Below, one piece after another: positions 765 to 64,000 of a stretch of 64,000 nucleotides of DNA. The number at the start of each line of letters is the position of its first letter. Positions within the stretch are counted from its first letter, which is position 1. Location of the stretch: positions 123,752,001 to 123,816,000 of the forward strand of contig OZ024742.1 of the NCBI GenBank assembly GCA_964016885.1, given 5' to 3'. Below the pieces are notes generated by a model. The model was not told the origin of the DNA, ran no database searches, and saw only the letters and a program-made list of their open reading frames with translations. The DNA is from Eledone cirrhosa (lineage: Eukaryota). A program made the translations under genes and the position numbers.

Positions 765-3125
765 CATGGAACTCTTTTAACCATCTTTTGATCTTATATA
801 TATATATATATATATATATATATATATATATATATATATATATATGCATACATATACATACATGCATGTGCGTGTGTACAGACATTTATATACATATGCA
901 TAATACACATACACACACAAATATATATATATATATATATATATATATATTTGTGTGTGTATGTGTATTATGCATATGTATGTGGGTGTATGTGTATTAT
1001 GTATATGTATATAAATGTCTGTACACACACACATCCCATCAGGAGAGCGTTATGCATTAGTTATGTTTCAGAAGCTAATGTTTAGTAATATCTTTGTCGT
1101 TAAGTATAGCCTCCCCTTAAACAGTGATATATACTTTATATCTCAAGTTCAAGTACTAAGCACCTGTTCATATTTTTCCATTCAATGTCGATGAAAAAAA
1201 GTAACAGTTTAGTACTTCGTCTATATCTAGTTCTCCCATTCCATCAATCTCTACCCTTCTGTGGTAGCAATCTTCTCTTTTCAGACCTGGGGAGGAGACG
1301 GAGTCTCCAAGCTTGAAATAGTTCTCTAGAATCACCATATGTTAATACGGCGCACCTGTGACTCCATGAGGAATTATGGCAGCATACATATGTAAAGACT
1401 ATCCCTACATCAACCTGGTAGCAAGAAGTAACCGAATATCTCCACAGAGAACTATTTTTCGATGAGATACAACATAGTTTCCGCAATTATGTATAATACA
1501 ATCCACAGGAAAGATTGTTCTGGTGGTTATACCAAAAACATAGCAGTACAATAATGTAGCCGTTACTTTAAAAATAAGGAATGATAGTGTAACAATTCGG
1601 TATAAACAACAATCCAATGTAAAGATTCAGCTGCTAGTCTTCTCTGCGTCCAGTGACAAACATCATGCGCTGTTGCAAAATCAGTTGCACTGCAAATATG
1701 AAGTTATCCTCTACATTGAAGGAAAATGATAACATTTATAATGAGCCCCTGTAAGGGTGTCGGCGTTCGTATGAATACTCTCTCTCTATATATATATATA
1801 TGTATTACTATACATGGATTAGTAGAGGTAGGTGGTGGTCTTTTCCTGAAACAAAAAATACAACCGACTACTATTCTGCAAATTCAATCTATTACTCATA
1901 CTGTGAAGATTTTTCATTTGAATCTCCTTGAATGAAGATACGCATGTATGTGCCTAATGAATCACACACACGCACACTCACGTGCACACAATCACACACA
2001 CACACACACAACACTTTGTAGAGAAATAATATAATCCCATAACATAGCAGCACTTCTCCACATAAAATGATATACACGAAAACATTATCTCACATATCAA
2101 TATTTCTTTCATTCAAACAAAGTCTTGTCAATTTGTTAACGAGTCTTTTGAATTCTACAGAGAAGAACGTAAAATCCTAGATACGTATGCACTTACATGC
2201 ATAAATACACACGTGCAAACGTACTTACATACAGGCAGAGATACATGCGTTCATACAAACTAACATACATGTGTAGCCAAGTTATGTAGAAACCCATACA
2301 CATGTGCAATTTTGAACGTTTTTAAGATGTGGCATTATATTCAGTGCAATGTTATATTTGATTTTTTTATATTCGTCAGCAAAAGTGAATATCTATCCCA
2401 AATTTATGTTTCAGTGGTTATCAGAATCATCCATTTTTAAATGCATTTCACGCCATTTGTAATTCTGGGATTCAATTTATCTTTAAAATGAACTGAATGA
2501 AAGAAATAGCACAGCAATTTGATAGATGACGCAGATATTGACTTCTCAACAATTTTATTGTTTCACCCGATTGTAATCCATTTTATTTCTCAGGGTATTG
2601 CATGGTTGTCTCAGTGCGTTGGCTCAATTATGTGCTACAAAACATCTCTGACAATTCACTGGAAAATATAATGAGGAAAACTATATCGTGCGTAAATCTT
2701 ACACCTTCGAAACAATAAGAGTTGTGAATCTTCACTGCAAAATTGTATCGTTCATTTTGGTTATATATATTCTGTTTGTGTGTGCATATGTGTGTGTGTA
2801 CACACACATATATATATATATATATATAGGGAGAGAGAGAGAGAGAGAGAGAGAGATTGCATGATTATTTATATGACACATGAAATAGAACTATAAGTAA
2901 AAGAGCAGATTGTGCGAATATGTAGAACACTGCAATTTAAGCTGAACAACATTTCGTTCTAATTCTCAAATTAGGAATCGTCTGTTAATGCAGTAAAAGA
3001 TGAAAAAGTAATCTCATTTCATGAATAGCTATATCCCTATCTAGATAAGAACACGTTGCTAAATTTATTTTTATGTGTATGAATACATACATATATATAT
3101 ATATATATATATAGGAACCAGTAAG

Positions 3126-3219
3126 ACCCCGACAGCTGAGCTCAAGCCGTTTCGACGGCTAATTCTGGACTAAATGAAAATTTATCCTGGTATTTAAATA
3201 GCCGATCTTCTCAAGGGGT
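3126..3219 (-). ncRNA. Type I hammerhead, U3-A8 variant (mirror copy)
   Basis: Reverse complement of 7489-7582. Confidence 0.8.
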
Positions 3220-4341
3220 AATTCCATATATGGTCAAAGTGATTGTCAAAAATCAGTAGTAATTCTGTGGTTGCAAATTAGTAGGGGAGATGGTGGCTAA
3301 ACCTGCCAGTAGGAGAAAGAGGGGAGGGGGTGGAGTAGACCCAATCAAGCGTTGGTAGTGCCAGCTACAGCTGGGCATGAGGTCAAAGAAGATACAGGGG
3401 AGGGGGAGGGGGAGGAAGTCGGAACGGTAGGTAGAACAATGGGGGGTAGAAATAGGAAAGAAAAAAAAAAAAAAAAAAAAAAAAAATACTGAGAGTGAAG
3501 AAAGGCAAATAAGTGTAAAGAAAAGTAAAGTAAATTAAATTCTACGACCTAGGTGTCAGGCTATTGTTAGGCGAGAATAAAATAAAGAAAGAAAGAAAGA
3601 AGTAAAAAAATAAATAAATGAATAAATAAGGAAATAAGTAAGAGAACTAGGTGGGACGGATAAGGCAAGGACCCTTTTAAGAGGTATAAGTACGTAAATG
3701 ATACGGTGACGGGTCAACAAAAGGGGCCAAAATACTAAAGAGACTACCACGAAATAAACAATAAAGGTTTCCATCCCGGGCCAGCAACGACCCAGTGCAG
3801 CAAAGTGAACTTGTACGAGATAATAATTCTGAGTCCCGAGAAAAATATATACTAATGCTAACTCTAAAAGATCTAAAACAAGCTACATGAAAGTTCGTAC
3901 GAAATAAAGGTAGAATACGGAGAAATAAATTCAGAATCCACCCCGCCCAGAAGAAGAGCGAAGCAAGAAATACTGAAACGGAAAAATAAGGCATGTGCCA
4001 CTAAGAAATATAGAGGGCACAGAGAATAGTGGGAGCGGTCGGAAAAAGGGGGAAAGTATCCGGGGTCTAAGCCAGCTGCTATAAAGGGTGGAGTCCGCCA
4101 AATCTATCAAAGACTAGGGGAGGGGGGTGGGGGTACTAAGGCTACATGGGGCCAAAGGGCAGCCTCGGGTGGGCGAGAAAAGACGCCGACAAAGGAGAAG
4201 AGCTGGGGTAGAAGGACAAAGGGGAGAGGGGGGAAGGAAATAAAGGAAGCGATAAAAGAATACAAAGAAGATCTTACGTCTTCCTTGGCAAGCAGGGGTT
4301 ACCTATTGCAAAATCGGCAACTGGGGTGTTATAGCCCTAGT

Positions 4342-61391: not shown

Positions 61392-61768
61392 ATACCTTCC
61401 TGCCAGATTGTTGAACGTATATACTTACCTTATGTATATTAACGGCTGAGTAGCCTAATTTGCATGTCGAGTGGATTAATCAGCCGAGTGGACCGAAAAC
61501 GATGAAGGGAAAAAAGGAAACGAAATTTCATTTCCTACTCTTATTACGGCTGTTACTTAAATATAAGTATCTACACGTACATACATATATGTATACAGAC
61601 GTACAGTAGTATGTATATATATATACACAAATGCACACATATATATATGTACGTTTATCGTTATCGGTGCACCCAGCCGATTTACCCACTCGATATGCAA
61701 ATTGGGCTACTCAGCCGTTAATATGCATAAGGTAAGTATATACGTTCAACAATCTGGCAGGAAGGTAT

Positions 61769-61811
61769 ACGTTGCTGACGATAGCTAATAAGCTTGAAAC
61801 TAGTACATCGT
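61769..61811 (+). ncRNA. Minimal type I hammerhead (ACTAGT helix III)
   Basis: acgttg-CTGACGA-tagct aata agctt-GAAA-CTAG-TA-catcgt. Confidence 0.72.
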
Positions 61812-64000
61812 TCCTTTGTAGGTGTTGAACAAACGAGCGACGATGGTTGCTAGACACTGTACGGCTTAATTTGGTATGTTTGTTTACAAACACACCGAGC
61901 ATTATAATAAATGTTCGGTGAACCCATACGTACATATATATATATGTGTGCATGTTTGTATATATATATACATATCACTGTACGTTTGTATACATATATG
62001 TATGTACGTGTACATATATATATATATATATATATATATATATATATATATATATATATATATATATATATATATATATATACACATATATATATATATA
62101 TACATATATATATATATATATATATATATATATATATACATATATATATATATATATATATATTTATATATATATATATACACATATATATATATGTTCA
62201 TACATACATATATATATATATATATACATATATATATATATATATATATATATTTATATATATATATATACACATATATATATATGTACATACATACATA
62301 TATATATATATATATATACATATATATATATATATATATATGTACATACATATATATATATATATATACATATATATATATATATGTACATACATATATA
62401 TATATATATATATATATACATATATATATATATACATATACATGTATACATATATATTTATATATATACATATATATATATATATACATATATATATATA
62501 TATATATACATATATATATATATATATACATATATATATATATATATACATATATACATATATATATACATATATATATATATATATATGTATATATATA
62601 TGTGTGTGTGTGAATGTGTGTGTGTGCATTCGTGTATGCATGCAGTTGTATACGTCGGTACATGGTTGAGAATTTCGCTATGTCACCATGTCAATTTGTG
62701 CTGTATTTCACAGCTTTCCCCCGTAGGGCAATGGTTTCTATTATAGATTCCAGCTGACCATCATGAGTTAATTTTCTAGTCGCACGATATTCAACAAATT
62801 CATTCTATTGCGGAATATTCTCTCACTCTTTGTCCTTTGATTTATGCCAGATCATCATGTTGATTATATTTATTTCTGCTACAATTGATTTAATCAATTT
62901 AAAAGTCCGTATAGAGACACTATGTTCAAGTGAGTCTTCTGCATGCTACTGCTGCTATATAACCCAGTACAAATTGCTTCAGGGTTGAGTGCTGGCTGAT
63001 GAAACCGGCTCTGCCATTAGACCATGATCTGGTGGGGTGATTAAGTCGATTTCCAGCAGCAAAGATAACAGGGTTTTTATACTGAAGGATGATCTACTCG
63101 GAGTCAAATTCCAACCACCCCAAATGTTGGTTAAAATGCCTCACCGACCCGCAATTGGCCAGGCATGTTGAGTCCGGCTAAACCCCTGACATGACGATAA
63201 ATAAATAAAAATCGGTGAAGTAACACAACAGTGAGGGCTGCTCTAACACGAGTGAGAATACTCTGCATCGGTTCGTATTGTATAGAGCTACTAAACCATG
63301 AGCCACCAGAAAATGTATAAAATATTCTTTACAATTAAGAAACAAGACATAGATTAAAAGAGAAAAAAAAGGGGGTAAATTAAGCAAAAACAAGAAGAAT
63401 GAAACTTAAAATAGAATGTTCTAAACAAACAATTACCTAGTTGCTGGTTGGTCCTGAAGGTTGACATAAAGCATCACTTGCCACTCTCAATCACGCTCTT
63501 TTCTTTTCCACACACACACAATCCTCCTCCTCTATTTTGAAATTGAAGTCAAACAAAGACTGATGTTGAGTTTCATATCGATTAGTCATTGGGAAAACGA
63601 TGCTGTGATTGATTCAATCGAGAAATGCACGCACAAAAATTTAGATATTATTACTCTAGAATACTGAACCATTAGAAATGGCAAAAAGAAACTCTATTAT
63701 ATAAAATGTTAATGACAAACATGACTAAAGGATCTTATGAAGCAAAAACAGGACTAAAGGATCTTATGAAGCAAAAATATCGGATGGTTAAATCGCCAAT
63801 CAGTGAACTATTTCTGTTAAAAATTGCAGTTACTCTGATTATAAATGAAGTATCCTCTTTACCGATAAATATTCCCCTCTGCTTACCTTAAAATATTAAT
63901 GAAGCTAACTGTAACTGTTTATCTGTATCTTCGTTAAATGACACTCTTACTACATATTTAAGGTCACTTTTATATTATAAAGCAATTCATTTCACTGTAT

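What the first reader, a model, noticed from the sequence alone, without database searches (positions are those of the whole stretch)
3113..61995. Recurrent asymmetric 'inverted arm + tailed arm' insertion architecture across unrelated families
Seen: at least 12 insertions consist of two inverted copies of the element 3' end, only one of which has the last ~60-160 nt (3113-7675, 16860-17078, 17188-17337, 17359-17660, 18725-20022, 20183-20372, 21244-21736, 34181-35330, 38692-39520, 39559-39914, 40094-43451, 49392-49591, 53173-53350). In family A the tail-less arm stops at the same point, ttcct|atat, in three separate insertions (3113, 39520, 53173), where the element itself continues with atta. 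Established: PLEs often have inverted pLTRs and a 3' tail. Inference: there are two fixed priming points, the 3' end and an internal TA-like microhomology, used from both sides of a cut in (TA)n. Either arm can be the longer one, which argues against simple cDNA fold-back and for two templates.
Basis: partly seen in the sequence, partly recalled or inferred. Interest (0 to 1): 0.75.

Follow-up and report, generated by a model that had tools for sequence, protein, structure and literature searches.

The report
One-tail rule of Penelope insertions
These are insertions of Penelope-like jumping genes in TA repeats, each made of two head-to-head copies of which almost always exactly one carries a short tail, a layout already described in print that likely arises when both ends of the cut DNA copy the same RNA from two fixed internal start sites.

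Summary
All 13 listed insertions are real (tails 58-162 nt). They are ends of Penelope-like retroelements (family A meets the Hydra-clade motifs; family B is Neptune-like). The inverted copy with a tail at one end is published (PMC3846280, PMC8557442), and two internal RT start sites bounding the tail were shown in vitro (PMC11167929). Genome-wide, 13,465 of 27,308 family A arms stop at TTCC|TATA; short hairpins are 2,817 one-tailed, 16 no-tail, 104 two-tail (50% one-tailed expected if ends chose independently). Two corrections: the 'element 3' end' is also an internal site (3,531-bp tandems read on into the ORF), and the arms share private variants, so the template is likely one RNA (twin priming), not two. 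Short arms stop at a promoter-like +1; in family G they often carry an extra, cap-like G, sometimes on both arms. This scan has noted the same architecture many times elsewhere in this genome. Verdict: new variant of a known kind; moderately interesting because it makes an open question of PLE mechanism testable.

The parts
3113..5440 (-). Family A (Hydra-type PLE) tail-less arm, about 175 nt longer at its inner end than the partner; holds the 3' half of the RT/GIY-YIG ORF (4342-5472)
5440..7675 (+). Family A tailed arm; tail 7596-7675 (80 nt)
7489..7583 (+). Type I hammerhead-like motif of family A (U3-A8 core variant, long loop II), predicted cut 17 nt before the inner start site; activity untested
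   Evidence: sequence, stems II and III in the fold, variant described in PMC4209133
7508..7538 (+). TATA-like box (7508) and initiator-like A (7538, position -57) where short arms pile up; inferred transcription start
7603..7628 (+). Small hairpin motif just after the inner start site; the only other match in the 3,531-bp unit follows the outer start site
16860..17078 (.). Family F two-armed insertion, tail 137 nt on the right
17188..17337 (.). Family B (Neptune-like) two-armed insertion, tail about 60 nt on the left
17359..17660 (.). Family E two-armed insertion, tail 78 nt on the right
18725..20022 (.). Family F two-armed insertion, tail 162 nt on the right, tailed arm longer
20183..20372 (.). 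Family G hairpin, tail about 89 nt on the left
21244..21736 (.). Family D two-armed insertion with a canonical hammerhead core in each arm, tail about 98 nt on the left
34181..35330 (.). Family B: 77-nt tailed arm on the left, 1.07-kb tail-less arm on the right with GIY-YIG remnant
38692..39520 (.). Family A (older subfamily) two-armed insertion, tail 81 nt on the left
39559..39914 (.). Family I hairpin, tail 63 nt on the right
40094..43451 (.). Family C (ORF 40% identical to family A) two-armed insertion, tail about 147 nt on the left, tail-less arm longer
49392..49591 (.). Family H hairpin with canonical hammerhead core, tail about 69 nt on the left
53173..53350 (.). Family A short hairpin, tail 80 nt on the right; the commonest form in the genome
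47500..47680 (.).
61087..61934 (.). Further two-armed insertion, 144 nt unpaired on the left, left arm with a partial tandem of about 417 nt

Best explanation
These are Penelope-like retroelement insertions in (TA)n in which two head-to-head arms end at two family-fixed internal sites, one arm at each site, and they likely form when the element's enzyme cuts both DNA strands and each DNA end primes reverse transcription of the same RNA, one at the inner and one at the outer site. Shown here: the fixed sites, the one-tail rule, either arm longer, arm identity, the outer site being internal to the tandem unit, a few bases of TA match at the inner site. Inferred: the outer-primed cDNA displaces the inner-primed one from the RNA, so both can copy the same stretch; sites near the capped 5' end of the RNA give run-off cDNAs and thus the abundant 190-bp hairpins, while sites downstream of the ORF in read-through or circular RNA give arms of kilobases; the two cDNA 3' ends are then joined with 0-2 nt microhomology or short inserts by end-joining repair, and each is filled in on the other. 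A dimeric enzyme holding two RNA hairpins is the likely reason for the coupling (untested).
For: 13,465 of 27,308 arms stop at the inner site. Short hairpins: 2,817 one-tailed, 16 no-tail, 104 two-tail; independence predicts 1,467/691/779; 12 of 13 inspected 'two-tail' and 5 of 13 'no-tail' hits are really one-tailed. 82 of 90 tail-less arms have a partner ending at +79..+83 beside TA, none a tail-less partner. 25 of 25 long two-armed copies are one-tailed; tail-less arm longer in 12, tailed in 13, extremes 16 kb against 0.28 kb. In 5 of 75 short hairpins the tailed arm is shorter than the tail, so neither arm contains the other. Arms differ at 53 of 31,003 nt, share 162 variants, 40 seen in no other insertion; subfamily marks agree in 44 of 45. 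62 of 75 tail-less and 48 of 75 tailed short arms end at -49..-63; depth steps at -57 and +82 in read-derived contigs. Family H stops 30 nt after a TATAAATA box, family G at an initiator-like A. Family G: of 80 true starts among the first 100 of 2,536 matches, 51 carry an extra G (38 not explained by the other arm, against about 10 A and 5 C; hand tally, p 1e-8), and 4 hairpins carry it on both arms. 59 of 64 hairpins in 714 kb, 36 clusters, have tails of 30 nt or more. In vitro, an anole PLE cuts and extends both strands and starts RT at two internal sites that match the tail ends (PMC11167929).
Against: Shared variants cannot tell one RNA molecule from two RNAs of one source locus, nor exclude later gene conversion between arms; the 40 'private' variants are private only among 25 insertions. 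The cap-like G was not shown for family A (3 unexplained G, 3 A, 2 C) and only 2 cases in family H. No transcript data. The in vitro paper found the start site not homologous to the cut DNA, whereas short TA matches are seen here; 10 of 26 families show under 3 nt. 6 of 33 long records are single-armed and about 3 of 13 inspected no-tail hairpins look genuine. The pairing counts cover one subfamily and one gap range only. Empty sites and target duplications could not be read.
Confidence: 0.68

Rival explanations
1. Dual priming: each DNA end primes on its own RNA molecule, one at the outer and one at the inner site.
For: Explains overlapping arms without strand displacement and either arm being longer; cap-like G on both arms fits two RNAs as well as one; a dimer could carry two RNAs from one locus, which would also give shared variants.
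Against: Needs an extra rule that forces the two RNAs into different registers (96% or more one-tailed) and to come from one source (40 private shared variants, 20 of 22 arms as near or nearer to their partner than to any other).
Confidence: 0.17
2. One start site only; both arms are made with the tail and the endonuclease trims one arm at the inner site when the intermediate is resolved (Craig et al. 2021 suggest EN-mediated resolution).
For: Gives exactly one tail by construction; the inner site is TA-like, as an endonuclease target would be; proposed in PMC8557442.
Against: RT starts at both tail boundaries in vitro (PMC11167929); a hairpin motif follows each site in the same way in families A and F; it still needs two RNA-templated arms.
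Confidence: 0.08
3. Self-priming or fold-back of one cDNA (or of an antisense template, as proposed for rotifer PLEs) makes the palindrome.
For: Near-perfect palindromes at many junctions; templated inserts at some; proposed in PMC3846280.
Against: The tail-less arm is the longer in 12 of 25 long copies, up to 16 kb; 5 of 75 hairpins have non-overlapping arms; junctions with a spacer of one base and an extra G on both arms leave no loop for a fold-back.
Confidence: 0.05
4. Assembly or sequencing artefact (fold-back chimeras).
For: Palindromes are a known long-read artefact (own knowledge); the runs laid may be the assembly's own sample.
Against: Arms have diverged by up to 13% in old copies; tails are family-fixed; junctions differ from copy to copy; head-to-head joints occur in read-derived contigs of three runs.
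Confidence: 0.02

Closest known systems
Insertion structure of endonuclease-bearing Penelope-like elements (PMC3846280, passages; PMC8557442, passages and section 11)
   Same: Partial tandems, an inverted 5'-truncated copy, a tail on one end only, hammerhead in the pLTR, TATA plus initiator motif in the pLTR, (TA)n targets.
   Different: Tails here are 33-184 nt and family-fixed (30-40 nt in print); the tail is described as optional or 'often' one-sided, here counted as a near-strict one-of-each rule; either arm can be the long one.
Poseidon of Anolis carolinensis in vitro (PMC11167929, main text parts 1-2 of 4 read)
   Same: Both strands cut and extended, two internal RT start sites that bound the tail, AT-rich target, predicted dimer, uncleaved RNA as template.
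   Different: That work saw no difference in start site between strands and no homology to the target, and did not account for the inverted arm; here the two ends take different sites, with a median 3-nt TA match.
Hydra clade of C-terminal EN+ PLEs (PMC8557442 section 11)
   Same: Family A has RWR (for RWK), DKT, CxCx5C, CxxC and CxH around E and N, no CCHH, a hammerhead and (TA)n targets.
   Different: Unit is 3.5 kb (mostly under 3 kb in print); core is the U3-A8 variant. Family B in the same window is Neptune-like, so the rule crosses clades.
L1 twin priming and the proposed dual priming (PMC2837659, passages)
   Same: Second DNA end primes at an internal RNA site, giving head-to-head inverted fragments.
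   Different: In L1 the internal site is variable, the event is a minority and arms do not overlap (internal deletion); here both sites are fixed, the event is the norm and the arms duplicate the same stretch.

Membership tests
EN+ Penelope-like elements | Single ORF with RT and C-terminal GIY-YIG endonuclease | tested here: met
   717-aa ORF with YRDD and a C-terminal VIY...YIG motif read directly; Pfam finds nothing for it and only a sub-threshold GIY-YIG hit for family B
EN+ Penelope-like elements | Head-to-tail tandems forming pLTRs | tested here: met
   3,531-bp period, up to 4.6 units
EN+ Penelope-like elements | Inverted truncated copy and one-sided tail | tested here: met
EN+ Penelope-like elements | Hammerhead motif in the pLTR | tested here: met
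   Canonical cores read by eye in D and H, U3-A8 variant in A, CAGAAGA variant in G; no hammerhead among the 150 of 167 Rfam rows shown; cleavage untested
EN+ Penelope-like elements | RT groups with PLEs in a phylogeny | not tested
   No tree built
Hydra clade | RWK and DKT motifs | tested here: met
   RWR and DKT in the family A ORF against PMC8557442 section 11
Hydra clade | CxCx5C linker, CxxC and CxH, no CCHH | tested here: met
   CNCPDRSIC, CNLC, CKH; no cysteine pair inside the GIY-YIG core
Hydra clade | (TA)n targets | tested here: met
Hydra clade | Length generally under 3 kb | tested here: not met
   3,531 bp; a tendency in the paper, not a strict definition
Neptune clade (family B) | CX2-5CxxC linker and CCHH in the endonuclease | tested here: met
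   Read from the 34232-34810 frame; no similarity to family A RT; no tree
L1-type twin priming | Non-overlapping inverted fragments of one RNA | tested here: not met
   Arms overlap in 70 of 75 short hairpins and 25 of 25 long copies; it works like twin priming but is not the L1 pattern
L1-type twin priming | Target-site duplication | not testable with these tools
   Flanks are (TA)n; empty-site search uninformative

The most novel reading that the evidence does not exclude
Obligate asymmetric twin priming is the normal way these Penelope-like elements integrate: one enzyme dimer holds one capped RNA by two hairpins, assigns one fixed start site to each end of a double-strand cut, both subunits copy the same stretch up to the cap, and the host joins the two cDNAs head to head. 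The tail, the inverted pLTR and tens of thousands of 190-bp hairpins are all by-products of this one reaction, across at least two PLE clades.
Probability: 0.55. Interest if true: 0.7.

Novelty: new variant of a known kind. Interest (0 to 1): 0.5.

Why it matters
Reviews of PLEs name the origin of the tandem/inverted structure and of the tail as open (PMC8557442), and the one in vitro system leaves the steps after initiation unvalidated (PMC11167929). This genome holds thousands of very young copies that fix what a model must give: one of each start site per insertion, same template, run-off at the RNA 5' end, end-joining in the middle. A young intact 717-aa ORF and defined RNA sites make the test simple. 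A retroelement that writes both strands of a break from RNA would also interest genome engineering, and the hairpins are a sizeable source of palindromes in this genome.

Tried and rejected
DNA search of the own genome with the family A end found nothing because common words are skipped; patterns were used instead. Rfam scan was swamped by microsatellite matches to miRNA models and showed no hammerhead in the rows printed. Pfam does not recognise these ORFs. No RNA holder listed, so expression and RNA ends were not tested. Whole-region RNA fold is no more stable than shuffles (z -0.25). The idea that short arms stop at the hammerhead cut site was rejected for family A: the pile-up is about 40 nt upstream of it, and only about 6 of 75 tailed arms begin at -17..-23. 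Cap-G test inconclusive for A and thin for H. Search for paralogous empty sites on 38 hairpins gave only microsatellite matches. The window's own junction at about 39190 was not among the pieces listed, so that call supports the class of joints, not this copy. Loci for could not be cut out, so its tally was done by hand on the 100 listed rows. No structure or complex prediction was run. Paper searches found no paper that states a strict one-of-each rule, twin priming or cap copying for PLEs; subscription papers, such as Evgen'ev and Arkhipova 2005 and Arkhipova 2006 (cited in the papers read, not seen), may say more.
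Full report
Observation. Self-comparison of the window and inspection of every listed interval confirm the finding. Each of the 13 intervals lies between TA runs and consists of an inverted arm and a forward arm, with 58-162 nt unpaired at one outer end. 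Twelve show clear arm-to-arm matches (87-99.5% identity); 34181-35330 has only about 20 nt of overlap and was placed by mapping to its family. The three family A tail-less arms end at TTCC|TATA as stated. The window is part of a 3.0-Gb animal assembly; the organism was not identified.

What the elements are. Family A occurs as head-to-tail tandems of 3,531 bp with one 717-aa ORF. Its motifs match the Hydra clade as defined in PMC8557442 section 11: RWR, DKT, CxCx5C, CxxC, CxH, no CCHH, (TA)n targets. Family C is 40% identical to it; family B has the Neptune-type linker and CCHH and no detectable similarity in the RT piece compared. Hammerhead-like motifs lie just upstream of the inner end in A, D, G and H. 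Families D, E, F, H and I were seen without ORFs here and are assigned to PLEs by architecture and, for D and H, by the hammerhead; some may be non-autonomous.

The outer end is internal too. In the tandems the sequence runs on past the tail end for about 90 nt to the ATG. So the tail is the stretch between two internal sites (0 and +82), as in the anole element (PMC11167929), and not the 3' end of the element. Whether the RNA is processed there is unknown.

The one-tail rule. Of 27,308 family A arms that match a 33-nt pattern through the inner site, 13,465 go straight into TA. For short hairpins of one subfamily (gap 61-91 nt) the genome holds 2,817 with one tail, 16 with none and 104 with two; independent choice would give 1,467, 691 and 779. 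Of 13 'two-tail' hits inspected, 12 are one-tailed with the inner end shifted by 2-9 nt and one is three-armed; of 13 'no-tail' hits, 5 are one-tailed with a mutation, 4 are tandem re-duplications of a neighbour, 1 lies in a larger palindrome and 3 look genuine. Starting from 90 of the first 100 listed tail-less arms, 82 have a partner that ends at +79..+83 beside TA; the other 8 are interrupted, cut off by the locus or single-armed. Among 33 long records chosen by an ORF probe, 25 are two-armed and fully in view, all one-tailed; 2 run off the stretch fetched and 6 are single-armed. In 714 kb of window, flanks and arbitrary regions, 64 of 448 segments between TA runs are hairpin-like, in 36 clusters; 59 have tails of 30 nt or more, fixed within families, and 3 of the other 5 are microsatellite pairs.

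Against fold-back. The tail-less arm reaches further in 12 and the tailed arm in 13 of the 25 long copies; one has a 16-kb tail-less arm and a 284-nt tailed arm. In 5 of 75 short hairpins the tailed arm is shorter than the tail. One cDNA folding on itself cannot give these.

One template or two. In 22 insertions with 300 nt or more of overlap, arms differ at 53 of 31,003 positions but share 162 differences from the reference copy, 40 of them seen in no other insertion sampled; the partner is as near as or nearer than any other arm in 20 of 22; subfamily marks agree in 44 of 45 short hairpins. With the coupling of the two ends, one RNA is the simplest reading. Two RNAs from one locus, or gene conversion between arms, are not excluded.

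Where the arms stop. Of 75 short family A hairpins, 62 tail-less and 48 tailed arms end at -49..-63, peaking near -57, the A of an initiator-like motif 30 nt after a TATA-like box; contigs of four sequencing runs (two samples, one study) show depth steps near -57 and +82. Family H stops 30 nt after TATAAATA and family G at an initiator-like A. For G, the first 100 of 2,536 matches with a non-T base before that A were tallied by hand: 20 read-through variants dropped; of 80 starts 51 G, 20 A, 9 C; 38 G against about 10 A and 5 C are not explained by the other arm; four hairpins have the extra base on both arms. An untemplated 5' G is read as possible cap copying in L1 work (PMC9341517, passage). 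The same test was inconclusive in family A. Junctions have 0-2 nt microhomology in 43 of 75, short inserts in 20, some copied from nearby sequence, and differ from copy to copy, so hairpins were made anew each time rather than spread as units (inference). Such joints also occur in read-derived contigs.

Priming sites. At the inner site the element matches the TA flank by a median 3 nt; 16 of 26 families reach 3 nt or more against 2.3 expected (50 of 59 hairpins passed the register check). Following a lead from earlier notes of this scan, a small hairpin motif was found exactly twice in the family A unit, at +8 and +92, once after each site; family F repeats a motif after both sites; H and E have it after the inner site; B, C, D, G and I do not match the strict pattern.

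Mechanism. Established for another PLE in vitro: both strands cut and extended, two internal starts. Shown here: fixed sites, one of each per insertion, shared template variants, stop at a promoter-like +1. Inferred: one RNA, displacement of the first cDNA by the second, run-off at the cap for sites near the RNA start, read-through or circular RNA for long and multi-unit arms (circles are proposed in PMC4209133, passage), end-joining of the two cDNA ends, a dimer as the coupling device.

Novelty. The architecture is in print (PMC3846280 and PMC8557442, passages; one supplement file of the latter searched for Hydra entries), and the two start sites are shown in PMC11167929. Six searches of the held library found no statement of a strict one-of-each rule, of twin priming or of cap copying for PLEs; older subscription papers were not seen. 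Part 1 of 5 of a 2026 preprint on retrozymes was read and did not bear on the arms; its supplements are closed. The scan's own notes report the same architecture and similar models at many other places in this genome; they are not counted as support. Verdict: new variant of a known kind, interest 0.5.

Noticed in passing
window 61087-61934: Two-armed insertion whose left arm holds a partial tandem of about 417 nt (61085-61228 repeated at 61502-61651); no ORF seen, possibly a small non-autonomous unit moved by a PLE.
   Followed up: partly
window 10632-14190 and 34181-35438: Family B (Neptune-like) copies; the 3.5-kb one has a tailed arm only and broken RT frames at 11464-12996.
   Followed up: partly
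window 58390-60918 and 47749-49391: Older family A copies (75-85% identity) with rearranged or missing arm parts.
   Followed up: no
window 38283-38363: Family G tail-less arm joined to a piece of the tail end only a few bases long, the non-overlapping geometry.
   Followed up: partly
window 20183-20372; L307-L336: Family G keeps a hammerhead-shaped RNA with core CAGAAGA instead of CUGANGA; 12,379 arms match its tail-less end pattern.
   Followed up: no
L083, L089, L090, L092, L135, L141: Hairpins duplicated in tandem with the same junction, the duplicate lacking the tail; likely local slippage between TA runs and the inner site.
   Followed up: partly
L025/L026 and L086: Whole hairpin insertions mirrored across a TA run or inside a larger palindrome.
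   Followed up: no
G000:C1:437198000-437214500 (L197-L199), G000:C2:51275000-51286000 (L200-L201): Very young multi-unit tandems (99.6-100% identity) with an intact 717-aa ORF; the family is probably still active.
   Followed up: partly
window 8986-10349: Direct tandem of about 526 nt, 2.6 copies, between TA runs.
   Followed up: no
window 20607-20692, 22876-23248, 24482-24851, 25061-25274, 31575-31758, 45253-45470, 55173-55392: Another dispersed short repeat family in both orientations, some as inverted pairs; probably a SINE or MITE.
   Followed up: no
window and all loci: Different PLE families stack in each other's TA flanks, forming chains of insertions.
   Followed up: no
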